This document shows, piece by piece, positions 4,711 through 62,772 of a DNA stretch of 64,000 bases. The DNA comes from Malacoraja senta (Eukaryota), in contig CM075987.1 in assembly GCA_038087875.1 (NCBI GenBank), positions 19,346,001-19,410,000 on the forward strand. The letters are read 5' to 3'. Below the pieces are notes generated by a model. That model was not told the origin of the DNA and searched no databases. It saw only the letters and a list, made by a program, of their open reading frames with translations. Made by a program: the position numbers and the translations under genes. Every line of letters starts with the position of its first letter. Positions within the stretch are counted from its first letter, which is position 1.

Positions 4711-5125
4711 ACAGCATACTAAGTCACAACAATCTCCTCGAACAATTCTCTTCCATTGTCCATCTATTTTTGCTTCTTGCCCACCTGTTAATTTCATAAC
4801 CTGGACAATTTCACAAGTCCCAAACTCAGCTAACAATCTCTGATTTATCAAACGGCTGAAAGACCACAATAACCTGGGAACTGAATGATATCTCCATATA
4901 CCAGTCCAATTCCACCTACGCACCCACGCACCCAACCCACTAACTTAACTTTGGCACCTACGATTGATTCAGCCTATCTCTTGTATAACATGATAAGAGA
5001 CAAATTAGTTTGGTGGAAAAATGTGCCATATATCATTTGTGCATAGATCGGTGCCCCTTTACATGGGGATTTTCCTGATTGATTAGCTGTTGATAGCGTT
5101 GCCACTGGGTACAAGAGGTTATCCT

Positions 5126-5921
5126 GGCAAAAACAGGAAAGCAGACTATTATCTAAATGGTGGCCGACTAGGAAAAGGGGAGATGCAGCGAGACCTGGGT
5201 GTCATGGTACACCAGTCATTAAAAGTAGGCATGCAGGTGCAGCAGGCAGTGAAGAAAGCGAATGGTATGTTAGCTTTCATAGCAAAAGGATTTGAGTATA
5301 GGAGCAGGGAGGTTCTACTGCAGTTGTACAGGGTCTTGGTGAGACCACACCTGGAGTATTGCGTACAGTTTTGGTCTCCAAATCTGAGGAAGGACATTAT
5401 TGCCATAGAGGGAGTGCAGAGAAGGTTCACCAGACTGATTCCTGGGATGTCAGGACTGTCTTATGAAGAAAGACTGGATAGACTTGGTTTATACTCTCTA
5501 GAATTTAGGAGATTGAGAGGGGATCTTATAGAAACGTACAAAATTCTTAAGGGGTTGGACAGGCTAGATGCAGGAAGATTGCTCCCGATGTTGGGGAAGT
5601 CCAGGACAAGGGGTCACAGCTTAAGGATAAGGGGGAAATCCTTTAAAACCGAGATGAGAAGAACTTTTTTCACACAGAGAGTGGTGAATCTCTGGAACTC
5701 TCTGCCACAGAGGGTAGTCAAGGCCAGTTCATTGGCTATATTTAAGAGGGAGTTAGATGTGGCCCTTGTGGCTAAAGGGATCAGAGGGTATGGAGAGAAG
5801 GCAGGTACGGGATACTGAGTTGGATGATCAGCCATGATCATATTGAATGGCGGTGCAGGCTCGAAGGGCCGAATGGCCTACTCCTGCACCTAATTTCTAT
5901 GTTTCTATGTTTCTATGTTTC
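5126..5921 (+). mobile_element. Young 5'-truncated CR1 LINE
   Basis: Open ORF2 C-terminus ending [10 protein letters not shown]; (TTTCTATG)n tail; TATCCT repeated on both sides. Confidence 0.96.
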
Positions 5922-14150: not shown

Positions 14151-15094
14151 ATGGCCCCACAAATGGATCTGTCCCAGTGTAAAGCAGTACAGTAATATTC
14201 CAGAGAGGGGACCATCCAATACCTTGGGATCTAGAGTTATTGTACAAAAACCTTTGCATAAAAATTCTGCTTTAAATAATTCTATGAACATAATCATTGC
14301 AAGAATAAGATGACATTCCTTTCACGGTTCATCCTTTGATGGTTGCTTATTTTAAAAGATTCTCTTCACTGTCGTGCTCACATTTTAATGAGTTATTTTG
14401 TTCGTGGATTCTGTTAGCTGCTGGCGTTATGTTTGATACCAAAGGCATGTGGGATTTTTTTTTAAATCAACCTGGAACAAATTTCCAGTAAAATGTCAAT
14501 CACCTGGCTGCACACGAGATGCATTCAATCGAAAGGAGAAAATTTGACACTTTAAAGCTGTCCATCTTGGAAATAATTAGATAACTCCACCCTCAATGCA
14601 GCACGCAGACCACACTGCTTTAAGTCATCATATGGATATAATGCATGCTTTACTGCCCTCTATTCATTGCAATCTGCTGAGGGGAAGCAGTCAATTGGGA
14701 GATTTACAGTTTGCTATAGCCCATGAGCCCATGCAAGCCCTATCCTGTCTCTGATACACTCATTGTCAATGCTCATTGTGTATTCTGACTGATTATATAT
14801 GTCTGCCTTAGAATGCATCATAAGAAGTGATATACGCATAACATAATGGGGGCAGGTTTTGCTTTGCAGATGCTAGTTATTTCTAGCATTTACTATTTAA
14901 TTGTACAATTTTAATATCTGCACTTGTTGACAGTCTCGTGTTGAATTGAGAAGAGCCATTTTATATCTCATAAGAGAGGGTCCGGAGTTTTAAGTGACAA
15001 ATACTGCACAGTTTGCGTTCGAGGGTTAGCAGTTCTAGGGTGCTCACTTCTGATCACACCACCATTACCTAAATTTCTCTATCAAATTAGTCAG

Positions 15095-15535
15095 AAGATG
15101 CTGCCAGGACTCGAGTGCCTGAGCTGTAGGAAGAGGTTGGGCAGGCGAGGACTTTATTCCTTGGCGCACAGGAGGCTGTAGGGTGTATAAAATCATGAGG
15201 GGAATAGTTCGGGTGAATGCAGAGTCCATCACCACTGTGAGGAAATTAAGAGCCAGAAAAATTAGGTTTAAGGTGAGAGAGGAGAGATTTAATAGGAACT
15301 AAAGGGAACTTTTTCCAGAGGGCGGTGGGTATAGGGAATGAGTTGCCAGAGGAGGTAATAGAGGCAGGTACAATAACAGCATTTAAAAGGCACTTGGACA
15401 AGTGTGCGGATAGGGAAGATCGAGAGGGATATGTGTCAGTGGTGGGCAAATGGGACCAGCTTAGATAGGCATCTTGTTCAGCATGGACAAGTTGGGCTGC
15501 AAGGCCTGTTTCCTTGGTCTATGACCCTATGACTT
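15095..15535 (+). mobile_element. Degenerate CR1 LINE 3' fragment
   Basis: ORF2 end, 3' UTR and ctatga-type tail. Confidence 0.75.
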
Positions 15536-15917
15536 TACCTCTCCCTGGCCAATTGGAAAGCAAAAAGTCACGTTGATTCCTCACAGGTTGGAATTTTAGC
15601 CTCTCCAAAAGTCTTTCATTCCTGTTGCAACTCTCAATTTCTTTGTGACTATTAAATGATCAGAGAATATCTTCATATAGAAAGGCACAAATTAATCAGC
15701 GCCAGTCAGCATGGATTTGTTAAGGGAAGGACATTGCTTGCCAATATGATTCAATTTTTTGCATTGGATGTAATCTGTGTGTTTTCACAAGGCTCTTGGC
15801 AAGGAGCCACACAGAATGGTTAAAACATCTGAAAACACGTAACATCAAAAGGGGAAGAATGAATTAGATCCAAAATTGGCTCAGTAACAGAAAGCACATA
15901 GTTGATGGATGCTTTTG

Positions 15918-16300
15918 GAAACAGAGAAATTAGGTGCAAGAGTAGGCCATTTGGCTCCTTGAGTCAGCACTGCCAAGTCAATATGATCATGGCTGATCAT
16001 CCAAAATCAGTACCCTGTTCCTGCTTTCTCCCCATATCCCTTGATTCCATTTGCCCCAAGAGCTAAATCTAACTCTCTCTTGAAAACATCCAGTGAATTG
16101 GCCTCCACTGTCTTCTGTGGCAGGGAATTCCACAGATTCACAATTCTCTGGGTGAAGAGGTTTTTCCTCATCTCAGTCCTAAATGGCCTACTCCTTATTC
16201 TTAAACTGTGACCCCTGGTTCTGGACTCCCCCAACTTTGGGAACATTTTTCATGCATCTAGCCTGTCCAATCCCATAAGAATTTTAAATGTTTCTCTAGA
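15918..16300 (-). mobile_element. CR1 LINE 3' fragment
   Basis: ORF 16007-16246 matches the CR1 ORF2 C-terminus, followed by the CR1 3' UTR. Confidence 0.9.
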
Positions 16301-16734
16301 ATACAAACCATTTCCTGCTGGATTGCACGGGATGCCTTGTTTATTTGTAATATATATTTATGATTTAGACCTAAATGCAGAGTGCATTAGCGGTGCTGGC
16401 TCGAAGGGCCGAATGACTTACTCCTGCACCTATTGTCTATTGTAAAGAAAGCTGCAAATAATATCAACAACAGGGCCAATTTCTGCAAGGTGGAAGACAG
16501 GTGATAGTTGAACAGCACAGTGGCAAATAGAATGTAATCAAGATAAATGTGGGGCAATGCATTTGAAGGGGTGCAATATGCTAAAGAATATGCAATAAAT
16601 GGGGCAGAGAGTTAAAAAGGAACCTTGTCTGCAGATCTTTAAAAGTAACAGACAGATCAATAAATGGTTAAAAATGTGAAAGTGATGCTTTGATTTATTA
16701 GCTGAGGCACAGACTAGAAGAGGCAGGGGAGTTA

Positions 16735-16802
16735 GGGGCTCATGTTGTCGACCTCCCCGTGGTGAGCCCTGTCAACTGACCTCAGTCAGGCGAACGACAA
16801 CA
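16735..16802 (+). ncRNA. HDV-like self-cleaving ribozyme (predicted)
   Basis: P1 GGGGCTC/GAGCCCT (G1.U wobble), P2 TGTTGTCG/CGACAACA, P3 ACC/GGT, L3 TCCCCGT, P4 CTGAC-CTCA-GTCAG, J4/2 GCGAA with the catalytic C at 16791. Confidence 0.85.
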
Positions 16803-16942
16803 AACAGAGACAGCAGCAGCAGCGCAGCTTGGCGCCAACCCGGAGCATGCGCCCTTTTTAGGGCGGGCACCTACGGATGTCGTACCGGATGGCATCACCC
16901 TGCTGTGGACTTCTGCTGCCTCAAACGCAAGAAGAAGAAGAA
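16735..16942 (+). mobile_element. 208-bp non-autonomous non-LTR retroelement with 5' HDV-like ribozyme and (GAA)n tail
   Basis: Flanked by 12-bp direct repeat GCAGGGGAGTTA (16723-16734, 16943-16954); 3' end caagaagaagaagaa; GC-rich; inserted in a degenerate CR1 fragment. Confidence 0.85.
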
Positions 16943-17259
16943 GCAGGGGAGTTATGCTAATACAATATAAACTCTGGTCGTTTTAGCTTTGTACGAGTCT
17001 TGACATCACATTTTTGGAACATGATTGCATTGGAGGGGGTGCAAAGGGGATTTATAAGGATGAAACCAGGACTGGAGCTATTTTAGCTGTAAACAAAAAG
17101 GCTTTATACTGAATTATTGTTTTAAACTTTGGAACAAGGGACACCGAGGGAAGATGTAATTGCTGTGTATAAAATTGAAGGGTTTGCATAAATAAGTATG
17201 TGAAGAGAACAAAGGATCATGAAGACACAAGTAGGTCTTGACAGTGATGCTTTAAGTGC

Positions 17260-17550
17260 AGCACAGTGGTGCAACAGTAGAGTTACTTCCTCACAGCACC
17301 AGAGACCCAGGTTCAATCCTAACTATGGGTGCTGTCTGCAATGAGTTTGTACATTCTTCCTGTGGCCGCATCGGTTTTCTCTGGGTGCTCCGGTCTCCAC
17401 CCACATTCCAAAGATGTACAGGATTGTAGGGTCATTGGCTTCTGTAAATTGCCCCTAGTGCATATGACATGGAACTGCTGTATGCGTGATCAGTGGACTC
17501 AATTAACCATAGCGCCTGTTTCCACACTGTACATTTAAACTAAACTAGAC
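17260..17550 (+). mobile_element. HE1-type SINE
   Basis: tRNA-like head, core and (TAAAC)n tail. Confidence 0.8.
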
Positions 17551-18676
17551 TATATCCACTGGGGATTTTTGAGGAAGTAAATATCCGTATGGAGAATCAG
17601 CAGATGTCGTGCGTTTGGATTTTCAGGAAGCTTTTTATATGGTCCCATGCAAGAGGCTAGTGTGCAAAATTGAAGGACTTGAAATTGCAGCTAATGCATT
17701 GCTGTGGATTGTGAATGATTAGTAGGAACAAAACAGGGTAAAAATAAATGGGTATTTTTCCAGATGGCAGGCAGAGATGAACAAAAATCCTGTCAGGAAT
17801 CAATAATTGAGAACATAGCTAGTCACAATAATTTGGACCCAAGATGTATCAGGTTGGGAGGCTTCTTCCTCCAACAGTTTGTTAATTGGCCCTTGGTTCA
17901 GGTCATAAAGACAGTGTCATACAGTACAGAAACATGCCCGTTGGCCCAACTTGCCCATGCCGACCAAGATGCCCCATCAACATTAGTCCACATTCACCCC
18001 ATATCCCTCTGAACCTTTCCCTTGCATGTACAGATCAAGGGTAAAACAATGAAGGGTGTTGATAATAATAATAATACATTTTATTTATAGAGCGCTTTTC
18101 AGGACTCAAAGTCGCTTGGGCATACGAGGGTGAGAACAAGTTGTAGGGATACAGGATAAGGAGAGGAGTGATAGGATTGCACAGTGGGAACTGACATGGG
18201 CCAATGGGCCGAATCACCTCCTCTGAGAAAGGTTGTACATTGAATGGCTTTCCCCCCCCCACAGAATCAAACACTTAACAAAACATTTTTCTTGAATTAG
18301 CATTATTATTACTTTCAATTACAAAGTTTTTCTTTTATAGAATTCTGCAGATTAAACTGCAGTTACTGGAGAGTCCACAATATTTTTCCACACTTTAATA
18401 ACAAAAGTATTGAAAGTATTACCAGGCTTTAAATGATCAGATAAGGACATGAGGTCTGGGGATGGAGGAACAACGAGAGAAGATAATTTCAACAAAAGAT
18501 TTACAGATGAAGGATTATTATTAGCCACCATTTTTCACAACCATTTAAATTAAGAGGTTACTGGGTCCCATTGATGACAGCAGAACATTGAGGGCAGATA
18601 GGTTATTTCCATTTGTGTCCATGCTATGTCCTACAGACGACCTACTAGGAGAGTCCATATATTTCGCCCCACACCT

Positions 18677-18733
18677 ATCTCTCTCTCTCTCTGTCTCTCT
18701 CTCTATCTCTCTCTGTCTCTCTCTCTCTCTCTG
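18677..18733. repeat. Imperfect (CT)n microsatellite downstream of the ptges stop
   Basis: Direct reading. Confidence 0.9.
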
Positions 18734-19301
18734 TCCCTCCTCCTCCCCCTACCAACACTCACTACCCTCCTTATGCCGCATGACCAACATTTTGTTTCCT
18801 GCCTTTGGTCTGTATGTCCCACCCTTGCTGCACAATCCTCTAAATTCACAGTACGCAAACACAGGGACAGTTACTCATCCCAGTCCACAGGGTGGTATGT
18901 CAGGAGACAGCTCTGGCCACATCCAGCCCGTGACATGGACTTGATGTTACCACTGTGGAAATGTCACCACAGATAGGGATAGATGACTACCTACCATTAC
19001 CTCAACAGAAAACACACTTAAATTAGTTTGAAAAACAAAGAGCCACATATCTTACTCTTTGCAGCAATTTTCAGCAACCTCTTAGATAAATATATTCAAG
19101 TAAAGCAATAGTTCATTCTAATATCTTTGCGCATAATGTACTGAAGCAGAACTTTCATTCTGAAAGACACTTTGGGTATATTTTGCATCACGGCTTCTCC
19201 AAAGTTGATAAAGTGTGCCACGTCATAAACACGTGTTGTTCAGTCCTGAACCATCAATGTTGGGCAACAATACGTCGAGCGTCGCTGTGGAAGGCTTGGC
19301 T

Positions 19302-28500: not shown

Positions 28501-31500
28501 ATGGCTGATCATCCAACTCAGTATCCCGTATCTGCCTTCTCTCCATACCCCCTGATCCCTTTAGCCACAAGGGCCACATCTAACTCCCTCTTAAATATAG
28601 CCAATGAACTGGCCTCAACTACCCTCTGTGGCAGAGAGTTCCAGAGATTCACCATTTTCTGTGTGAAAAAGTTTTTCCTCATCTCGGTCTTAAAGGATTT
28701 CCCCCTTATCCTTAAGCTGTGACCCCTTGTCCTGGACTTCCCCAACATCGGGAACAATCTTCCTGCATCTAGCCTGTCCAACCCCATAAGAATTTTGTAC
28801 GTTTCTATAAGATCCCCTCTCAATCTCCTAAATTCTAGCGAGTATAAGCCAAGTCTATCCAGTCTTTCTTCATATGCAAGTCCTGACATCCCAGGAATCA
28901 GTCTGGTGAACCTTCTCTGCACTCCCTCTATGGCTATAATGTCCTTCCTCAGATTCGGAGACCAAAACTGTACGCAATACTCCAGGTGTGGTCTCACCAA
29001 GACCCTGTACAACTGCAGTAGAACCTCCCTGCTCCTATACTCAAATCCTCTTGCTATGAAGGCCAACATACCATTCGCTTTCTTCACTGCCTGCTGCACC
29101 TGCATGCCTACTTTCAATGACTGGTGTACCATGACACCCAGGTCTCGCTGCATCTCCCCATTTCCTAATCGGCCACCATTTAGATAATAGTCTGCCTTCC
29201 CGTTTTTGCCACCAAAGTGGATAACCTCACATTTATCCACATTATACTGCATCTGCCAAACATTTGCCCACTCACCCAGCCTATCCAAGTCACCTTGCAG
29301 TCTCCTAGCATCCTCCTCACAGCTAACACTGCCCCCCAGCTTAGTGTCATCCGCAAACTTGGAGATGTTGCTTTCAATTCCCTCGTCCAGATCATTAATA
29401 TAAATTGTAAATAGCTGGGGTCGCAGCACTGAGCCTTGCGGTACCCCACTAGTCACTGCCTGCCATTGTGAAAAGGACCCGTTTACTCCTACTCTTTGCT
29501 TCCTGTTTGCCAGCCAGTTCTCTATCCACATCAATACTGAACCCCCAATACCGTGTGATTTAAGTTTGTATCCTAATCTCTTATGTGGTACCTTGTCGAA
29601 AGCCTTCTGAAAGTCCAGATACAACACATCCACTGGTTCTCCCCTATCCACTCTACTAGTTACATCCTCGAAAAATTCTATAAGATTCGTCAGACACGAT
29701 TTACCTTTCGTAAATCCATGCTGACTTTGTCCAATGATTTCACCACTTTCCAAATGTGCTGCTATCCCATCTTTAATAACTGACTCTAGCAGTTTCCCCA
29801 CTACCGATGTTAGACTAACTGGTCTGTAATTCCCCGTTTTCTCTCTCCCTCCCTTCTTAAAAAGTGGGGTTACGTTTGCTACCCTCCAATCCTCAGGAAC
29901 TACTCCAGAATCTAAAGATAGCAGTTGCCGTCATGTTGAATTGAACAGTTGCTGTTCAATTTAATGAACAGACAGCCCACATTCCCCCGGGGAGAGGGTA
30001 TAATTGGGCTGACAATTTTACGTAGACCTATTCACATAAAACCAATATATTTTTTTATTCAAGGTATTCATGCAAAGATTCATGCAGTGTATATTCTGGA
30101 CGTATCACTAGAACTAGTCTCACTGAATATGAGATTAAAACTTACCCTCAGATTCTCCAGCTATATATGACCATATTTAAGGCAAGTTGTACACTTGTGG
30201 AATGGACAACATTTAAGATGAGTTCTACAGCTGTGTATTGTGCTGGAAATGAACACAAAAAACTGCCAAATCTATCCTCAACAATGATTTCCCATTCATC
30301 ATTACTCAGATTAAAAAGTAAGGTGCTGGACACGTGAAGGACTCGGCAGTCTGCAGTTGAATGCACAAATCTAAAGGGTTGAATGGCCAGTGAAGCAAAG
30401 GCAATACGAGAGGGGATTTTATTCCTGCTCTATTTGTGATCTGGAATGCTTTGCTTGGGAGGGAGGTGGAGGCAGATTCAAGCTCAGCTTTCAGAAGGCA
30501 GCCAGATAAATAAAGGGGAAACAAAAATGCAGGACTATGGGAATGAGAGGCATCAGCTGCATAATATTACCAGCTTTTATATAGAAAATAATTGATCTTC
30601 TCAGCTTCGGCAGCTTTGGCCGATTGCTTCATTGTACGAGTCAGCTTCAGAGAACCATACCTTCGAGTCCGCTCCACGTCAGGATCAGTCCGATGGTACA
30701 TCAGTCCACCATGTCTCATCGCATCCTCTGGGTTGGTAAAGGCCTGGGGAAGAGAGGAGGAGGAGGTTAGACAAGTCACTTTATAGCGAAAACATAGAAC
30801 CAAATACAGTATGTCAGTGCTTCGATATGATTACCCACAGGTTACTCCACCAGAGGAGATTGTTATTGCTGATAGTAAAACAGATCAGGATCAAATGTCA
30901 GCATGTACACACTTCAACAGCACACTTCATTATCATCTCCCTGCTCCACAACTCCAGACTTCACCATAACCCGTGCCTGCTGAGTGTCAAACGGCAGCAT
31001 TCTTGTTTCTCAAGATCATGGGTCAAAACCCATCCAAAGGCAAGATCGTTAAATCAGGCCGAAGTCCCCTCCTGCCCCCATATCCCAGTTCTCTGAATCA
31101 GTGCTGACCCACCAAGATTGACTTCTGATCAAACCTTAACCCAGGGCACTCCAACCCCTGTATAAACAATCCCTCTGCACCTTGTCACATATGAGCAGGG
31201 GTTCTTGGCAAATGTTCTCTCTCATCCAACATTCCCACAAATCACAATTGGTATCTGCATTTTTAACACCTGCAACTACTTCCTTTACAAACCAAGGCTG
31301 GAAAACATTTGGCATATTCCTAAAGTTACAAAAGACACTGAGAAATTCATTTATTCTATCCAGAACAGTACGTTACTTCCTACATTATGATCTTTTACTT
31401 TCTGCAATAACTTTAATGTCTGAAGAAGGGTTTCGCCCCGAAACATTGCCTATTTCCTTCGCTCCATAGATGCTGCCGCACCCGCGGAGTTTCTCCAGCA

Positions 31501-38417: not shown

Positions 38418-40124
38418 CAAGTATATCGGAATTGTTTGAAAAAGGTATAATATTTGCAGTAAGAAAATCATTTTTATGGCATTAATTTTACCAACCATTG
38501 AGATAGGAAGTTGGATTCCATTGTCAGTGACTTTATCTGGGATTATAAGAATCATAGGATAAGCAAAAAACATCTGTGCAAATCAAAAATAAATGGAGGC
38601 TTGGTTTTACCAAACTTTTTGTATTATTTTTGGGCAGTTAACATTAAAAATATGAATTTTTGGTTGGAAGAAATAGATCAACAACCAGATTGGTTAAAAA
38701 TGGAAAAGGAAGATTGTTCACCTTTTGAAATCGGTTCGATACTATTTGCTACTTCTAAATTAAACAAAAAAAATTATAGGGAAATCCTATGCGAATTTGG
38801 AAACAATTAAAAAAGACATTAAAATTAGATAACATCACTTTTTCTTCCAATTGTGAATAATCCTTTGTTTAAGCCCTCATGGTTGGACAAAGGTTTTACA
38901 CAATGGAAAAACTATGGAATTAAAAAGATGGGACAACTTTACAAGGAAGGCACTTTTCTTTCATTTCAGGAGTTGCAGCAAACTTATGGACTTCAAGTAA
39001 ATGATTTTTTCAGATATCTTCAACTTAGAGATTATGTAAAAGCAAATACTCAAAACTTTAGAATTAGAAATTCAGAAATTCTTGACGACTGTTGGAATAA
39101 ACATCCTAATAGAAAAAATTAATATCTTACATATATAATATTTTATTAGACAGCGATATCCCATCGACGGACTTACATAGACAAACATGGGAAAAAGAAC
39201 TAAATCAAATAATAACGAAAGATACTTGGGAAGAAAGTTTACAACACATACATCAATGTTCATTAAATGCCAGACACTCTCTAATACAATTTAAAGTAAT
39301 ACACAGGTTACATTATTCTAAAACAAAATTAAATAAAATCTTCCCACATATTTCACCTATATGTGATAAATGTCAACATTTAGAAGGTAACTTATCTCAT
39401 ATGTTTGCAAATTGCATAAAAATTAAAAAATTCTGGGCAAATATTTTCAGAATAATATCTAAAGTGACCAGCACTCAATTAGACCTGGATCCAAAATTAA
39501 TAATACTAGGAACAGTAGAACTAAATCAAACATTTACAACAACTCAAAGAAACTTTATTGATTATAGTATAATAACTGGTAAAAAATTAATTCTAAAATT
39601 TTGGAAAGGCCCTATAACCCCCACAATTAAAATGTGGATTATAGAAATGACGGAGACCTTACACTTGGAAAGAATTAGACTTGTCCTGTTGGACAAACAA
39701 GAACTATTTGCTGGAACATGGTCTCCCTTTATTGATTATCTAAAGGGTCAGAACGGTTCAGCACAAGAACCTGACTAGCACTCGAGCCAAGGAATAGATG
39801 AAATGTTATATTCTGAAATGTACGAATATATCTCGAATTAAGTTTTTTATCTTTATATTCCATTCTTCTTTATTATCTCTTTCTTTTTTGTTTTCTTTGT
39901 TTCTTTTTTTTTTCTTTTTTTTTTCTCTCTTTTCTTTCTTTATTTCATCTATCTTTTTAGTTCTATTTAGTTTAAAAAAAAAGAAAAAGAAAAAAGTATT
40001 GGAGCCAATGTAATAATATTTGACAATATTATTAATTTAAAAATGTAAGACTGGTAACGACTTTAATATGATATGTATTTACCTCCAATAAAAAATATTT
40101 TCAAAAAAACCACAAAAAAAACCA
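38418..40124 (+). mobile_element. L1-clade LINE 3' fragment with inverted 5' segment
   Basis: AT-rich ORF2 remnants (LDSIVSDFIW..GGLVLPNF..YFWA; zinc knuckle CDKCQHLEGNLSHMFANC); AATAAA at 40087-40092 then an A-rich tail; 15-bp TSD AGAACGGCATAAAGA (38403-38417, 40125-40139); 38418 to about 38510 is antisense ORF2. Confidence 0.92.
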
Positions 40125-57305: not shown

Positions 57306-60300
57306 ATGAGTTAAAGACTAAGGGACATCGGCAGAACATATTTGAGTGGCAGTAAGAAGAGGGCCGAAGAAGAAAAGGAGAAAGGTGCATTAGATAAGTA
57401 CTTCAACAAAACTATCTCAGAAAATGCTGAAGAGCAAGTGGAGCCACAACACAGTGAAGATGATGACACTGAAGGAAGCCAGTCTGAAAAGGTTATGCAA
57501 GACATTCAAAGTGGGATTTACTGAAAGTGAGATCGGCCATTTCAAAAGTGTTGAATTTGACAAACAAGGAAACTCGCCTGTTGACATGACTCTGAGGCAA
57601 GGGAGAATGGGAATTCAAAATATGCCAGTTTTGTAGAATTAACAGATGATCCTGCAACATGTCCAGAAATGATGTCAGAATGGATCACGTTTTTCAAAAT
57701 TTCACTGCGAAAGAAAACTGCCAAGTGGTAGATACATAGATACATAGAAAATAGGTGCAGGAGTAGGCCATTCGGCCCTTCGAGCCTGCACCGCCATTCA
57801 ATATGATCATGGCTGATCATCCAACTCAGTATCCCGTACCTGCCTTCTCTCCATACCCCCTGATCCCTTTAGCCACAAGGGCCACATCTAACTCCCTCTT
57901 AAATATAGCCAATGAACTGGCGTCAACTACCCTCTGTGGCAGAGAGTTCCAGAGATTCACCACTCTCTGTGTGAAAAAGTTTTTCCTCATCTCGGTCTTA
58001 AAGGATTTCCCCCTTATCCTTAAGCTGTGACCCCTTGTCCTGGACTTCCCCAACATCGGGAACAATCTTCCTGCATCTAGCCTGTCCAACCCCATAAGAA
58101 TTTTGTACGTTTCTATAAGATCCCCTCTCAATCTCCTAAATTCTAGCGAGTATAAGCCAAGTCTATCCAGTCTTTCTTCATATGAAAGTCCTGACATCCC
58201 AGGAATCAGTCTGGTGAACCTTCTCTGCACTCCCTCTATGGCTATAATGTCCTTCCTCAGATTTGGAGACCAAAACTGTACGCAATACTCCAGGTGTGGT
58301 CTCACCAAGACCCTGTACAACTGCAGTAGAACCTCCCTGCTCCTATACTCAAATCCTCTTGCTATGAAGGCCAACATATCATTCGCTTTCTTCACTGCCT
58401 GCTGCACCTGCATGCCTACTTTCAATGACTGGTGTACCATGACACCCAGGTCTCGCTGCACCTCCCCATTTCCTAATCGGCCACCATTTAGATAATAGTC
58501 TGCCTTCCCGTTTTCGCCACCAAAGTGGATAACCTCACATTTATCCACATTATACTGCATCTGCCAAACATTTGCCCACTCCCCCAGCCTATCCAAGTCA
58601 CCTTGCAGTCTCCTAGCATCCTCCTCACAGCTAACACTGCCCCCCAGCTTAGTGTCATCCGCAAACTTGGAGATGTTGCTTTCAATTCCCTCGTCCAGAT
58701 CATTAATATAAATTGTAAATAGCTGGGGTCCCAGCACTGAGCCTTGCGGTACCCCACTAGTCACTGCCTGCCATTGTGAAAAGGACCCGTTTACTCCTAC
58801 TCTTTGCTTCCTGTTTGCCAGCCAGTTCTCTATCCACATCAATACTGAACCCCCAATACCGTGTGATTTAAGCTTGTATCCTAATCTCTTATGTGGTACC
58901 TTGTCGAAAGCCTTCTGAAAGTCCAGATACAACACATCCACTGGTTCTCCCCTATCCACTCTACTAGTTACATCCTCGAAAAATTCTATAAGATTCGTCA
59001 GACACGATTTACCTTTCGTAAATCCATGCTGACTTTGTCCAATGATTTCACCACATTCCAAATGTGCTGCTATCCCATCTTTAATAACTGACTCTAGCAG
59101 TTTCCCCACTACCGATGTTAGACTAACTGGTCTGTAATTCCCCGTTTTCTCTCTCCCTCCCTTCTTAAAAAGTGGGGTTACGTTTGCTACCCTCCAATCC
59201 TCAGGAACTACTCCAGAATCTAAAGAATTTTGAAAAATTATCACTAATGCATCCACTATTTCTGGAGCTACTTCCTTAAGTACTCTGGGATGCAGCCTAT
59301 CTGGCCCTGGTGATTTATCGGCCTTTAATCCATTCAATTTACCCAACACCACTTCCCGACTAACCTGGATTTCACTCAGTTCCTCCATCTCCTTTGACCC
59401 GCGGCCCCCTGCTATTTCCGGCAGATTATTTATGTCTTCCTTAGTGAAGACGGAACCAAAGTAGTTATTCAATTGGTCCGCCATATCCTTGTTCCCCATG
59501 ACCAATTCACCTGTTTCTGACTGCAAGGGACCTACATTTGTTTTAACTAATCTCTTTCTCTTCACATATCTATAAAAAATGTTGCAGTCAGTTTTTATGT
59601 TCCCTGCCAGTTTCCTTTCATAATCTATTTTCCCTTTCCTAATTAAGCCCTTTGTCCTCCTCTGCTGGTCTCTGAATTTCTCCCAGTCCTCTGGTATGCT
59701 GCTTTTTCTGGCTAATTTGTACGCAACATCTTTTGCTTTGATACTATCCCTGATTTCCCTTGTTATCCACGGATGCACTACCTTCCCTGATTTATTCTTT
59801 TGCCAAACTGGGATGAACATTTTTTGTAGTTCATCCATGCAGTCTTTAAATGCCTTCCATTGCATATCCACCGTCAACCCTTTTAGAACTAATTGCCAGT
59901 CAATCTTGGCCAATTCACGTCTCATATCCTCAAAGTTACCTTTCTTTAAGTTCAGAACCGTTGTTTCTGAATTAACAATGTCACTCTCCATCCTAATGAA
60001 GAACTCAACCATATTATGGTCACTCTTGCCCAAGGGGGCACGCACAACAAGTCTGCTAACTAACCCTTCCTAATTACTCAATACCCAGTCTAGAATAGCC
60101 TGCTCTCTCGTTGGTTCCTCTACATGTTGGTTTAGATAACTATCCCTCATACATTCCAAGAAATCCTCTTCCTCAGCACCCCTACCAATTTGATTCACCC
60201 AATCTATATGTAGATTGAAGTCACCCATTATAACTGTTTTGCCTTTGTTGCACGCATTTCTAATTTCCTGTTTGATGCCATCCCCAACTTCACTACTACT

Positions 60301-62772
60301 GCTAGGTGGCCTGTACACAACACCCACCAGCGTTTTCTGCCCCTTAGTATTTCGTAGCTCTACCCATACCGATTCCACATCCTCCAAGCTAATGTCCTTC
60401 CTTTCCACTGCGTTAATCTCCTCTCTAACCAGCAACGCTACCCCACCTCCTTTTCCTTTCTCTCTATCCCTCCTGAATATTGAATATCCCTGGATGTTCA
60501 GCTCCCAGCCTTGGTCACCCTGGAGCCATGTCTCCGTGATCCCAACTATATCATAATCATTAATTGCTATCTGCACGTTCAACTCATCGACCTTATTACG
60601 AATGCTCCTTGCATTGAGACACAAAGCCTTCAGGTGAAATTGTAGATCGTCCATGGCTAATATACTCTGTATCAAGTGATAAAATCTTCTATTACTACTG
60701 CCAGCTTTTTGATAATAACGCAGAAAGTGCACTTGCAAGTTGCGGTTTTAATAACTGGCCGAACATTCATACAAGACATGCTGAGCATGAGAACTCCAAA
60801 AAGCATTTGCAAGCTATGCTCAGTTGCTGTGAACTGCAGCAAAGATTATCTGCTGAAAAAACTATTGATGAAGTGGTAGAAAAACTAATCAGACAAGAAG
60901 CAAAACACTAGCATCAAGCGTTTGAGCGACTTGTAGCCACTGTACAGTTCCTAACAGAAAGAAACTTGCCATTCCGGGGATCTAAGGAAAACATAGGAAC
61001 ACCACATAATGGAAATTTCTTTGGTGTTATTGAGTTGCTAGAAAAGTTTGATCCAGTAATGCAAGATCTGCGAAAAATCCAGAATAAGGAAATACAAGAT
61101 CATTATTTAGGAAAGATAATCCAGAATGAGCTTATTAATATAATGGGTCAAGCTGTTCTACAGGAAATCATATTGCGAATCAAGGCTGCTAAGTATTTTG
61201 CAGTAATTCTCGACTGTACTCCTGACATCAGTCATCAGGAGCAAATGTCAATGGTAATTAAATATGTAGCTGATGGTGTACAATCAAATGCTCCAGCAGG
61301 AATATATGAACATTTCATCAAGTTTTTAGTGGTGGAAAGTAGTACAGGTGAAAATGTGTACAACACCCTTCCACATGAACTTGAAACATTAGGGCTGGAT
61401 GTTGAAAATATCCGTGGACAAGGGTATGATAATGGTGCCAATATGAAGGGACACACCTCACGTGTACAGGCACGACTTCTACAGAAGAATTCAAGAGCTT
61501 TCTTTACACCATGCGCATGTCACAACTCCAACCTAGTTTTGGAAGACATGGCCAAGACATGTCCAGATGCGATGACTTTCTTTGGAACTCTGCAGTGTAT
61601 TTACACCCTTTTTGCATCATCTACTAAAAGATGGACTGTTTTTAGAAAACATGTGACAGATCTGTCTGTAAAATCCCTCTCTGAAACACGATGGGAATGT
61701 AGAATGGAAAGTGTCAAAGCTGTACGGTACCAAGCTGCTGATGTTTGTAATACACTAGAAGAGTTAGCAGAAAACACTGATGATGCTCAAGCAAAAAGCG
61801 ATGCTGAATCGTTAGTCAGTCAAATGAGATATTACAAGTTTCTGGTCTCACTAGTTTTCTGGCACTCCTTACTCTTTCAAGTAAATTTTGTGAGTAAGGA
61901 ACTTCAGAGTGATACCATGTATGTTGCTATAGGGCTTTCTTCATTTCAAAAGCTTTGTAACTGGTTAAAGACATACAGGGAAAAGGGTTTTGATGAAGCC
62001 TTGATTGACGCTAGTGAACTTGTCAAAAAAAGACCTAGATGCTGAGCCTGTTTTCAAGACACAGAGTAAGCGCTTACGCAAAAAAAGAAAATTATTTGAT
62101 TATAAATCAAATAATGAACCTTTGCCAGATCCAGAAACAGCCTTCAGAGTGCAATGTTTTAATCAGGTGGTAGATAAAGCACTGCAAACACTTGAGCCAC
62201 GGTTTGAACAACTGAAAAGGTATCAACATTTATTTGGATTCTTGTGCAATTTTCAGGACCTGTCCAAGGACACCATAAGAAAATGTGCAGCAGATCTGGA
62301 AGTGGCATTGACAGAGGTCAAGCTGGGGCAGGAAAAAGATCAATTTAAAACCACAAAACTGGTTGATATATCGATGGATACATGCTTAGTGAGGATATGG
62401 AGGCACTAAAGCCAATTCTGCCACCAGAGATTCAAAACCCCATGAAAATGCTTAAATTCCTTGCTTGTAACAACAGGTCTACCGCATTTCCAAATTTATT
62501 TCTTGCTCTTCGGATTTTCCTGACAATCCCAGTGACTGTGGCATCTGGAGAAAGGAGTTTATCCAAGCTGAAACTGTTCAAAACTTACTTGAGATCATCA
62601 ATTCAGCAAGAACGTTTGAACAGTTTGGCAATTATGTCCATTGAATCTGAAATTAGCAGGTGTTAACTTATTAAACAATTTATTGACAAATCATGAACTT
62701 ATTAACAAATTAACAGACAAAATTCTAAAAGACATTGCAGAGAAAAAAGCAAGAAAGATAACTTTCTCATAA
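57306..62772 (+). pseudogene. hAT (ZMYM1-like/DUF4371 plus hATC dimerisation) transposase pseudogene, split at 57729/60633
   Basis: N-terminal YLSGSKKR..; TTF-type zinc-finger-like RKLPSG|EIVDRPWLIYS across the CR1; core ILDCTPDISHQEQ, GQGYDNGANM, PCACH, SETRW; C-terminal FPNL..ALRIFLTIPVTVASGERSLSKLKL.KTYLRSS..QERL. Several stops and frameshifts. Confidence 0.92.
57730..60632 (-). mobile_element. Young CR1-clade LINE, 5'-truncated at the start of ORF2 (APE endonuclease plus RT)
   Basis: LNARSIRNK, GITETW, GDFN and SDH endonuclease motifs; RT motifs [10 protein letters not shown] and KFADD. A single in-frame TAG at 60070-60072. 3' UTR with (TATCTATG)n tail. Confidence 0.97.

What the first reader, a model, noticed from the sequence alone, without database searches (positions are those of the whole stretch)
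16723..16954. Ribozyme-headed mini-retroelement: an HDV-like ribozyme forms the exact 5' end of a 208-bp SINE-like insert
Seen: a 12-bp TSD (GCAGGGGAGTTA) brackets 208 bp ending in (GAA)n. The first base after the TSD (16735) is G1 of a nested double pseudoknot: P1 GGGGCTC 16735-41/GAGCCCT 16764-70 with a G.U wobble, P2 TGTTGTCG 16743-50/CGACAACA 16795-802, P3 ACC/GGT, L3 TCCCCGT, a probable 1-bp P1.1 (G16771), P4 CTGAC/GTCAG and J4/2 GCGAA (C16791). No tRNA A/B boxes are evident. Established: HDV-like ribozymes process the 5' ends of R2, RTE and Ingi/L1Tc-type non-LTR elements. Inference: this is a non-autonomous element that cleaves itself out of read-through transcripts instead of using a Pol III promoter. 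It would be mobilised by an Ingi/Vingi- or RTE-type partner, and may be an uncatalogued family in elasmobranchs.
Basis: partly seen in the sequence, partly recalled or inferred. Interest (0 to 1): 0.9.

Follow-up and report, generated by a model that had tools for sequence, protein, structure and literature searches.

The report
Ribozyme-headed deletion derivative of a LINE
This 208-bp repeat is a stripped-down copy of a small jumping gene (a Vingi-like LINE) that keeps the parent's self-cutting HDV/CPEB3-type RNA at its very first base: a known kind of element, but in a LINE group where that ribozyme seems not to have been described.

Summary
Window 16735-16942 is a 208-bp retroposon between 12-bp target-site duplications, ending in (GAA)n.

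It belongs to a family of several hundred copies. All 30 best copies start at the same G.

It is not a classical SINE. It is an internal-deletion ("bipartite") derivative of a compact, roughly 3.1-kb, single-ORF APE+RT LINE. That LINE carries the same ribozyme at its 5' end and the same short 3' UTR and (GAA)n tail.

Three LINE lineages keep P1, P2, P3 and P4 through compensatory changes: this one, a second family in the same genome, and relatives on metagenome contigs. The second family's head scores 60-64 bits on Rfam's "mammalian CPEB3 ribozyme" model.

The printed 5' ends of crocodilian Vingi LINEs show the same motifs, so the partner is Vingi-like.

Self-cleavage is inferred, not shown. 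One RNA-seq lay was uninformative.

Ribozyme-headed non-autonomous LINEs are already known (NARTc, R2 SIDEs), so this is a new member of a known kind. The wider lead is a possible LINE origin of the CPEB3 ribozyme.

The parts
16723..16734 (+). Left target-site duplication, GCAGGGGAGTTA
   Evidence: An exact 12-nt copy lies at 16943-16954.
16735..16942 (+). Whole 208-bp non-autonomous element: the short variant of the family
   Evidence: 40 of 40 scored genomic matches are 94-100% identical over nearly the full length; 30 of 30 fetched copies begin at this base.
16735..16802 (+). HDV-like (CPEB3-type core) ribozyme. P1 16735-41/16764-70; P2 16743-50/16795-802; P3 16751-53/16761-63; L3 16754-60; P1.1 candidate G16771; P4 16776-80/16785-89; J4/2 16790-94 with the presumed catalytic C16791. 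Predicted cleavage is 5' of G16735.
   Evidence: Covariation with other lineages.
16803..16841 (+). Segment derived from the parent LINE's 5' UTR. It carries a ~36-nt deletion relative to the long variant.
   Evidence: alignment of the window copy, the long variant L071 and the LINE 5' end in L073.
16842..16908 (+). Segment derived from the start of the LINE ORF (reads ..APFLGRAPTDVEPDGITLL..). It includes the hairpin GCGCCC(16849-54)-TTTTTA-GGGCG(16861-65) and a T5 run at 16855-59.
   Evidence: The hairpin sequence is also present in the metagenome relatives.
16909..16942 (+). 3' module shared with the LINE: about 21 nt of 3' UTR (CTTCTGCTGCCTCAAACGCA) plus the (GAA)n tail
   Evidence: In LINE 3' ends L068, L070 and L162 the ORF stop TAA directly precedes this module.
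16943..16954 (+). Right target-site duplication, GCAGGGGAGTTA

Best explanation
The element is a bipartite, non-autonomous deletion derivative of a compact Vingi-like LINE. The LINE is about 3.1 kb, with a single APE+RT ORF, a C-terminal CCHC-like motif, a ~25-nt 3' UTR and a (GAA)n tail.

The derivative keeps the parent's first ~170 nt: the 68-nt HDV/CPEB3-type ribozyme, the 5' UTR and the first codons with a conserved hairpin. It also keeps the parent's last ~35 nt.

**Proposed mechanism**
1. A copy is transcribed as part of a longer Pol II transcript, by read-through from a host gene or a neighbouring promoter.
2. The ribozyme cleaves 5' of G1. The RNA then begins at G1 with the folded double pseudoknot at its end.
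3. The LINE protein, supplied in trans, recognises the shared 3' module and tail. It nicks the target and reverse-transcribes to the RNA's 5' end.
4. The result is a full-length copy flanked by target-site duplications of about 10-13 bp.

**Shown:** the anatomy, the family, the precise common 5' end, the partner LINE, and conservation of the fold by covariation.

**Inferred:** catalysis in vivo, read-through transcription, and mobilisation in trans.
For: **Family and ends**
- The first look gave 908 candidates. All 40 scored are 94-100% identical over nearly the full length.
- The 26-nt ribozyme core occurs at 532 places with at most 2 mismatches, against 0 for the reversed control.
- 30 of 30 fetched copies start at the same base.
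- 23 of 30 have a duplication of 11-14 nt (one mismatch allowed) directly abutting G1 and the (GAA)n tail.
- Of 30 loci retrieved with the 3' module alone, 26 reach within 5 nt of G1.

**Partner LINE**
- A search for the 3' terminus with non-SINE sequence upstream gave 97 hits. More than 80 share an ORF end plus TAA stop.
- L068 and L070 are LINE 3' ends with the RT YADD motif and a CCHC-like motif.
- L073 carries the same ribozyme (RF02682, 29.1 bits) about 90 nt upstream of an APE ORF.
- L162 links that LINE to the SINE-type tail at 89-91% nucleotide identity.
- The long SINE variant L071 is colinear with LINE nt 1-237 and with its last 60 nt.

**Fold conservation**
Three lineages have perfect but different helices:

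| Lineage | P1 | P2 | P3 |
|---|---|---|---|
| A (this family) | GGGGCUC/GAGCCCU | UGUUGUCG/CGACAACA | ACC/GGU |
| B (L125, L128, L153) | GGGGAGG/CCUCCCU | GACAGAU/AUCUGUC | GCC/GGC |
| C (L156, L157) | GGGGAUC/GAUCCCU | GGUAGAA/UUCUACC | GCG/CGC |

- Each has its own P4.
- Each keeps a C-N-A/U-A stretch (CGAA, CUUA, CCAA or CUAA) directly before the 3' strand of P2.
- Flanks differ immediately upstream of G1 in B and C.
- A full-length family C copy (3109 nt) has its duplication TCACAACCT abutting G1.
- Rfam CPEB3 model: B 25-30 bits; C 59.7-64.2 bits against a gathering score of 35.

**No Pol III features**
- No tRNA and no other Rfam hit.
- There is a T5 run inside the element.
Against: - Cleavage was not tested.
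- The window copy scores below Rfam's gathering score (32.8 against 44). At E <= 10 it matches only RF02682, not the HDV or CPEB3 models.
- The nested MFE is not better than shuffles (z = -0.48).
- In the one raw RNA run laid (polyA RNA-seq, about 6% of the run read), only 34 reads lay on the stretch and 32 of them only partly. No pile of read starts at 16735 was reported. Loose ends at 16734-16737 (12 reads) run on into other flanks, so uncleaved junctions exist in RNA or contaminating DNA.
- A precise G1 start could equally come from an internal promoter, as Pr77 does in L1Tc (abstract listing).
- No single full-length family A LINE was recovered. Its 5' and 3' halves are joined through overlapping decayed copies at 89-91% identity.
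- 50 non-redundant 5'-complete copies were examined. 10 were set aside as out of register (more than 12 differences over the 68 nt). Among the remaining 40, 17 keep all 23 pairs, 36 keep C57 and 15 are fully intact.
Confidence: 0.8

Rival explanations
1. The common 5' end is a transcription start set by an internal promoter in the first ~70 nt, as Pr77 does in L1Tc/NARTc. The HDV-like fold then serves mainly other roles: 5'-end protection, protein binding or translation initiation. Under this reading, cleavage is not what defines the 5' end.
For: L1Tc's first 77 nt are reported to be both a promoter and a ribozyme (abstracts). The RNA lay showed no pile of starts at G1 and did show reads crossing the junction. 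The one family A LINE 5' copy examined has no in-frame AUG upstream of the APE motif, which hints at an unusual role for the 5' region in translation.
Against: The catalytic-core features are kept across three lineages while the helices covary. These features are the G1.U wobble, L3, the G after P1, and a C at the fourth position before the 3' strand of P2. That pattern is what selection for catalysis predicts. No promoter evidence was obtained. The two roles are also not mutually exclusive.
Confidence: 0.15
2. It is an ordinary Pol III SINE whose head merely resembles an HDV fold by chance.
For: It is short, high in copy number, flanked by duplications, and ends in a LINE-type tail.
Against: No tRNA was found and there is no 5S, 7SL or snRNA hit in Rfam. 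A T5 run at 16855-59, a Pol III terminator by general knowledge, lies in the middle. The whole 5' part is colinear with the 5' end of an autonomous LINE. The strict descriptor gave 0 hits in 3.46 Mb of shuffled sequence.
Confidence: 0.02
3. The ribozyme is a dead relic. It was active in an ancestral LINE but plays no part in the amplification of this family.
For: Among the 40 copies that stay in register, 15 have a fully intact ribozyme. C16791 is part of a CpG and is often read as T in other copies.
Against: The family majority equals the window copy across the ribozyme: no majority difference lies in 16735-16802 (table 3). That version has every pair and the C intact. The decay seen (mean 2.1 differences per 68 nt) is what neutral post-insertion mutation gives. 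All deletion variants seen keep the complete head.
Confidence: 0.05

Closest known systems
NARTc / RIME, non-autonomous derivatives of L1Tc / ingi (trypanosomatids) carrying the L1TcRz HDV-like ribozyme in their first 77 nt
   Same: An internal-deletion derivative of an APE-type LINE that keeps the parent's 5' HDV-like ribozyme and 3' end and is mobilised in trans (abstracts; passages of PMC5786205).
   Different: The host is a protist. The parent has an RNase H domain and a poly(A) tail, and the same 77 nt are also a documented promoter. Here the tail is (GAA)n, no RNase H domain was found, and no promoter is known.
R2 SIDEs (short internally deleted R2 elements, Drosophila)
   Same: They keep the 5' self-cleaving ribozyme and the 3' protein-binding end of the parent and lose the ORF (abstract of PMC3414825).
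   Different: R2 uses a restriction-like endonuclease, inserts only in 28S rDNA and is cut out of an rRNA co-transcript. The element here is dispersed, with variable duplications of about 10-13 bp.
Vingi LINEs and their bipartite non-autonomous derivatives (Vingi-1_EE derivatives; Vingi-2_ACar with SINE2-1_ACar; Vingi-2_Gav with SINE2-1_AMi)
   Same: A compact single-ORF APE LINE without RNase H that spawns 5'+3' deletion derivatives (passages). Vingi-2_Gav is listed as 3128 bp; family C here is 3109 nt. The printed 5' ends of Vingi-2_Gav and Vingi-4_Crp (supplement) show the same L3 motif TTCACGT, CCCTGTCA after P1, GCGAA, and a complementary P2 pair.
   Different: The passages I read do not call the Vingi 5' end a ribozyme. 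[quoted passage not shown] Membership of the LINE here in Vingi rests on architecture and 5'-end likeness, not on an RT tree.
Mammalian CPEB3 ribozyme (Rfam RF00622)
   Same: The same nested double pseudoknot with the same core motifs. Heads of family C LINEs in this genome score 59.7-64.2 bits (gathering score 35), with compensatory changes in P1, P2 and P4 against the model consensus.
   Different: By general knowledge, CPEB3 is a single-copy intronic element. Here the motif is the first 68-73 nt of a multi-copy retroelement. The window copy itself does not reach RF00622 at E <= 10.
Classical tRNA-, 5S- or 7SL-headed SINEs
   Same: Short, abundant, with a LINE-derived 3' end and flanked by duplications.
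   Different: There is no Pol III head, there is an internal T5 run, and the 5' part comes from the LINE itself.

Membership tests
HDV-like self-cleaving ribozymes | Nested double pseudoknot: P1, P2, P3 and P4 in the canonical order, with P1 starting at the cleavage site | tested here: met
   7-bp P1, 8-bp P2, 3-bp P3 and 5-bp P4, all standard pairs. There were 0 descriptor hits in 3.46 Mb of shuffled sequence.
HDV-like self-cleaving ribozymes | G1.U wobble at the base of P1 and a cytosine in J4/2 (the C75 equivalent) | tested here: met
   G16735.T16770 and C16791 in GCGAA. The identification of these as the catalytic features is from general knowledge.
HDV-like self-cleaving ribozymes | Helices supported by compensatory changes among relatives | tested here: met
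   Across three lineages, P1 positions 5-7, P3 positions 1 and 3, and all of P2 and P4 change while staying paired. The counts come from my own parse of 6 intact sequences, not from a formal covariation statistic.
HDV-like self-cleaving ribozymes | Reaches the curated score of an Rfam HDV-type family | tested here: not met
   Window copy: RF02682 32.8 bits against a gathering score of 44, with no other HDV-type model at E <= 10. Family C heads in the same genome do pass RF00622.
HDV-like self-cleaving ribozymes | Mg2+-dependent self-cleavage 5' of G1 | not testable with these tools
   The RNA-seq lay gave no usable signal.
Bipartite (internal-deletion) non-autonomous LINE | 5' end and 3' end colinear with those of an autonomous LINE, with the ORF lost | tested here: met
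   the long variant equals LINE nt 1-237 plus the last 60 nt, and the window copy has two further deletions. Searches support the same picture.
Bipartite (internal-deletion) non-autonomous LINE | Same insertion signature as the parent (duplications, tail) | tested here: met
   SINE: duplication in 23 of 30 copies, with a (GAA)n tail. Full-length family C LINE: 9-nt duplication and a (GAA)n tail. Family A LINE 3' ends carry the same tail.
Vingi clade (for the partner LINE) | Single ORF with an N-terminal APE and an RT, no RNase H domain, compact at about 3.1 kb | tested here: met
   Pfam gives only PF14529/PF03372 and PF00078. Length 3109 nt. Homologues are about 1000 aa on 3.2-3.6-kb contigs.
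Vingi clade (for the partner LINE) | RT-domain phylogeny groups it with reference Vingi elements | not tested
   No reference Vingi protein was available to the tools. There is only by-eye likeness of the 5' ends to Vingi-2_Gav and Vingi-4_Crp as printed in a supplement.
Pol III SINE | Head derived from tRNA, 5S, 7SL or snRNA with an internal promoter | tested here: not met
   ARAGORN found 0 genes. Rfam shows no such family at E <= 10. There is an internal T5 run.

The most novel reading that the evidence does not exclude
The so-called mammalian CPEB3 ribozyme family may really be the 5' head of Vingi-type LINEs that are at least as old as jawed vertebrates. On this reading the single intronic CPEB3 copy of mammals is an exapted LINE head. 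The HDV-type ribozymes of vertebrates would then trace to this retroelement lineage, of which the window's 208-bp element is a minimal surviving vehicle.
Probability: 0.4. Interest if true: 0.8.

Novelty: new member of a known kind. Interest (0 to 1): 0.55.

Why it matters
This is a clean natural example of the minimal cis requirements of a compact APE-type LINE: a ribozyme head, a short 5' segment with a conserved hairpin, and about 35 nt of 3' end. LINEs of this type (Vingi-1, RTE-1) are now being engineered as gene-insertion tools with their native 5' and 3' UTRs (review passages).

It extends HDV-like 5' processing to a Vingi-like lineage. The open-access papers I could search do not mention a ribozyme there.

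It also shows that Rfam's "mammalian" CPEB3 model finds dozens of above-threshold copies at LINE 5' ends in a genome whose CR1-like LINE has its closest named relatives in rays and sharks. That makes the origin of the CPEB3 and HDV ribozymes directly testable by comparative genomics.

Tried and rejected
- **RNA evidence for cleavage.** Only one raw-read RNA run was offered (polyA RNA-seq, coded organism H, about 6% of the run read). 34 reads lay on the stretch, 32 only partly, and there was no pile of starts at 16735. This is uninformative rather than negative. Passages of a 2026 preprint say HDV-like cleavage products are poorly captured by ligation-based methods. Contig ends at 16735 in other runs only mark a repeat boundary.
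- **Rfam RF02682 over the whole genome.** 5 matches from 62 scored candidates, all further copies of the same SINE. It gave no partner.
- **Ribozyme 3' end followed by non-SINE sequence.** 3 hits, all SINE copies with small deletions.
- **The top RVT_1 hits.** These led to an unrelated L1-like LINE with an A-rich tail (L066), which was rejected as partner.
- **The 925-aa open frame in C2310.** It proved to be a chimera of the Vingi-like LINE with an inserted CR1-like LINE.
- **MAFFT alignment of the ribozymes.** It misaligned the 3' halves between lineages. Pair counts come from my own parser.
- **My first loose descriptor.** It gave many false hits and was replaced by the strict one.
- **Earlier findings of this scan.** Nothing was returned.
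- **Papers not held.** Kojima et al. 2011 (Vingi) and Ruminski et al. 2011 could not be read. What I say of them comes from passages in papers that cite them, or from recall.
- **A -1 frameshift at CCCUUUU in the hairpin.** Considered and dropped, because it is not conserved in the LINE copy L073 or in the relatives.

Full report
**1. The observation**

The sequence at 16723-16954 is as described. GCAGGGGAGTTA occurs at 16723-16734 and again at 16943-16954. With one mismatch the repeat extends to 19 nt. Between the two copies lie 208 bp that end in AGAAGAAGAAGAA.

- P1 16735-41 / 16764-70, with G16735.T16770 as the wobble
- P2 16743-50 / 16795-802 (8 bp)
- P3 16751-53 / 16761-63
- L3 TCCCCGT
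- G16771 after P1
- P4 16776-80 / 16785-89
- J4/2 GCGAA with C16791

Rfam in E-value mode over 15000-19000 gave RF02682 (HDV-F-prausnitzii) at 32.8 bits against a gathering score of 44, E 0.0018. The complete model aligned to 16735-16801, so it begins at the first base after the duplication. That model has no P2, which makes the perfect P2 independent support.

A strict descriptor found 6 sites in the window plus loci L066-L162 and none in 3.46 Mb of shuffled copies. The nested minimum free energy alone is not unusual (z = -0.48).

**2. The family**

The window lies in a 1.94-Gb assembly. The 208 bp gave 908 first-look candidates. All 40 that were scored are 94-100% identical over nearly the full length. 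The 26-nt ribozyme core occurs at 532 places with up to 2 mismatches, against 0 for the reversed control.

All 30 fetched copies begin at the same base. In 23 of these 30, a duplication of 11-14 nt (one mismatch allowed) abuts G1 on one side and the (GAA)n tail on the other. In 7 of 30 my script found none.

When loci were retrieved with the 3' module only, 26 of 30 reached within 5 nt of G1 and 4 were 5'-truncated.

I examined 50 non-redundant 5'-complete copies. Ten were set aside as out of register (more than 12 differences over the 68 nt). Among the remaining 40:
- 17 keep all 23 pairs
- 36 keep the J4/2 cytosine
- 15 are fully intact
- the mean is 2.1 differences per 68 nt

That is ordinary post-insertion decay. 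The cytosine sits in a CpG.

**3. What it derives from**

A pattern for the last 16 nt of the 3' UTR, with upstream positions forced to differ from the SINE, gave 97 hits. More than 80 share an upstream sequence that ends in a TAA stop. I fetched six of them:
- Three (L069, L071, L072) are a longer variant of the same element.
- Two (L068, L070) are 3' ends of a LINE, with the RT YADD motif, a C-x-C-x8-H-x4-C motif near the C-terminus, then TAA, about 25 nt of 3' UTR and (GAA)n.
- One (L067) is a short fragment.

A protein search with that RT found many copies. One of them (L073) carries the same ribozyme (RF02682, 29.1 bits). About 90 nt downstream begins an ORF reading ERAPFLGWASTDVEPDGITLLQLNAEDL..., with APE Pfam hits. 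The middle of the SINE translates to the same peptide.

L162 overlaps L073 at 89-91% identity and runs into the SINE-type tail. This puts the whole LINE at about 3.1 kb.

The long variant L071 is colinear with LINE nt 1-237 and with its last 60 nt. The window copy has two further internal deletions. Other deletion variants appear as joints in public assemblies.

The element is therefore a bipartite, internal-deletion derivative of the LINE rather than a SINE with a foreign head. It has no tRNA, no other Rfam match, and a T5 run at 16855-59.

**4. Is the fold conserved?**

Relatives of the LINE protein are about 1000 aa and sit on 3.2-3.6-kb contigs. Eighty related loci were fetched from metagenome contigs.

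In two of the 19 loci that include the ORF start, Rfam's CPEB3 model matched just upstream of the ORF: L125 at 25.2 bits and L128 at 29.8 bits. The other 17 gave no ribozyme hit at E <= 1. Many of these are visibly decayed or 5'-truncated.

The CPEB3 model run on the window's own genome gave 39 matches above its gathering score of 35, out of 59 candidates scored. The top score was 64.2 bits.

The four best hits are the 5' ends of a second LINE family, C. One copy is full length at 3109 nt. Its 9-nt duplication abuts G1 and a (GAA)n tail, and it has APE and RT domains. It is 40% identical to family A over 349 aa.

Intact representatives of three lineages have different but perfectly paired helices:

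| Lineage | P1 | P2 | P3 |
|---|---|---|---|
| A | GGGGCUC/GAGCCCU | UGUUGUCG/CGACAACA | ACC/GGU |
| B | GGGGAGG/CCUCCCU | GACAGAU/AUCUGUC | GCC/GGC |
| C | GGGGAUC/GAUCCCU | GGUAGAA/UUCUACC | GCG/CGC |

Each lineage has its own P4. All keep the G1.U wobble, a U-Y-C-N-C-G-U L3, a G after P1, and a C-N-A/U-A stretch (CGAA, CUUA, CCAA or CUAA) directly before the 3' strand of P2. In B and C the flanks also diverge immediately upstream of G1.

This is the pattern expected of a fold kept for function. It rests on six intact sequences and my own parse, not on a formal statistic.

**5. Mechanism**

The most likely reading follows what is established for R2, RTE and L1Tc-type elements (abstracts; passages):
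1. A copy is transcribed within a longer transcript.
2. The ribozyme cuts 5' of G1 and stays on the downstream RNA.
3. The LINE protein, acting in trans, recognises the shared 3' module and tail and copies the RNA to its 5' end by target-primed reverse transcription.

This explains the invariant G1 start without a Pol III promoter. It also explains why every deletion variant keeps the complete head.

None of these steps was observed directly. The single usable RNA run gave 34 reads, most of them running into other flanks, and no pile of starts at G1. An internal promoter that starts at G1, as in L1Tc, is not excluded and could coexist with cleavage.

**6. Comparison with what is known**

Ribozyme-headed non-autonomous LINEs are in print: NARTc/RIME of trypanosomes and R2 SIDEs.

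Passages of Kojima 2018 (PMC5786205) make three relevant statements:
- Only RTE, Ingi, Vingi and R2 are known to give bipartite non-autonomous LINEs.
- Such elements usually keep the 5' end, possibly because of a ribozyme.
[quoted passage not shown] Vingi is not in that list.

The supplement of that paper prints the 5' ends of Vingi-2_Gav (a 3128-bp element) and Vingi-4_Crp. By eye they contain the L3 motif TTCACGT, CCCTGTCA after P1, GCGAA, and a complementary P2 pair.

Together with the architecture (single APE+RT ORF, no RNase H hit, about 3.1 kb), this makes the partner Vingi-like.

Full-text searches for Vingi with ribozyme found 3 papers, and none of the passages I read assigns a ribozyme to Vingi. 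Searches on the CPEB3 ribozyme with retrotransposon, origin or non-LTR found no paper deriving it from a LINE in the listings and passages I read. These searches cover open-access papers and bioRxiv only. Repbase, Dfam, patents and subscription journals were not searched.

**7. Host**

The window holds mostly transposon ORFs. A CR1-like ORF at 57826-60066 (-) has its closest named relatives in Hypanus sabinus (85, 74 and 70% identity), Chiloscyllium punctatum (76%) and Mobula birostris (58%). Bird CR1-like proteins are at about 45-55%. I did not pursue it further.

**8. Verdict**

- It is a new member of a known kind.
- The more interesting lead lies outside the given coordinates. The CPEB3-type ribozyme, catalogued as mammalian, is the standard 5' head of Vingi-like LINEs in this genome, in metagenome-borne relatives and, by eye, in crocodilian Vingi elements.

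Noticed in passing
L154-L157 and L163 (G000:C21:8957700-8958400; C1:217550285-217551000; C2:157111500-157112200; C1:86602491-86606200): A second LINE family ('C') whose first ~73 nt score 59.7-64.2 bits on Rfam's mammalian CPEB3 ribozyme model (gathering score 35). In the genome-wide search, 39 of 60 listed matches were above threshold. One copy is full length at 3109 nt, with its target-site duplication abutting G1, an AUG-initiated APE+RT ORF and a (GAA)n tail.
   Followed up: partly
L159 and L160 (G000:C2:95332588-95333300; C6:36061294-36062000): CPEB3-model hits of 40.4 and 37.4 bits that seem to lack P4 altogether: P1, P2 and P3 are kept, with a short CCACCAA linker. The similarity shared between the two loci ends about 95 nt after the start, so this may be an even smaller ribozyme-headed element. 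No duplication was identified.
   Followed up: no
L158 (G000:C10:9303688-9304400): A CPEB3-model hit of 47.7 bits whose 5' strand of P1 is incomplete. It is either 5'-truncated or embedded inside another repeat.
   Followed up: no
window 16849-16865; also L078, L083, L113, L125 and L140 about 60-100 nt upstream of the ORF match: The hairpin GCGCCC-UUUUUA-GGGCG at the start of the LINE-derived ORF segment recurs almost unchanged (CGCCC-UUCUCA-GGGCG) in distant relatives on metagenome contigs. Every deletion variant seen keeps it. It is a candidate cis element for protein binding or translation.
   Followed up: no
L073 (G000:C2310:64400-70600, minus strand), element nt 155 onward: In the one family A LINE 5' copy examined, the frame is open from nt 155 with no in-frame AUG before the APE catalytic motif. 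Family C has a normal AUG. This may be decay of that copy or non-AUG initiation.
   Followed up: partly
window 16910-16934: CUUCU at the start of the 3' UTR can pair with AGAAG of the tail, giving a 5-bp stem around a 15-nt loop. It is a possible recognition hairpin that includes the first tail repeats.
   Followed up: no
G000:C1897 (about 54574 and 61618) and C1683 (about 6666 and 14020); L037-L041: Copies of the element recur at spacings of about 7.0 and 7.35 kb on small contigs. A copy therefore seems to be embedded in a larger tandemly repeated unit.
   Followed up: no
L062 and L063 (G000:C4:21199433 and C4:21139813): Two 5'-truncated copies with identical flanks about 60 kb apart, which suggests a segmental duplication.
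   Followed up: no
window 57826-60747 (-), 28518-29930 (-), 5087-5818 (+), 60912-62409 (+), 39113-39778 (+): The window is dominated by transposon ORFs. There are several CR1-like LINE copies (one with a 747-aa open frame preceded by an APE ORF), a long ORF at 60912-62045 that looked like a transposase by eye (no family search was run), and an L1-like ORF2 C-terminal piece. No host gene was recognised.
   Followed up: partly
window 16776-16912, as seen in public assemblies (tables 5 and 5c): Further deletion variants of the same element exist. One joins 16818 to 16909 through about 40 nt of the LINE's ORF end. The element is also held by runs of several coded organisms that lack this window's flanks, so the family is shared by related species.
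   Followed up: no
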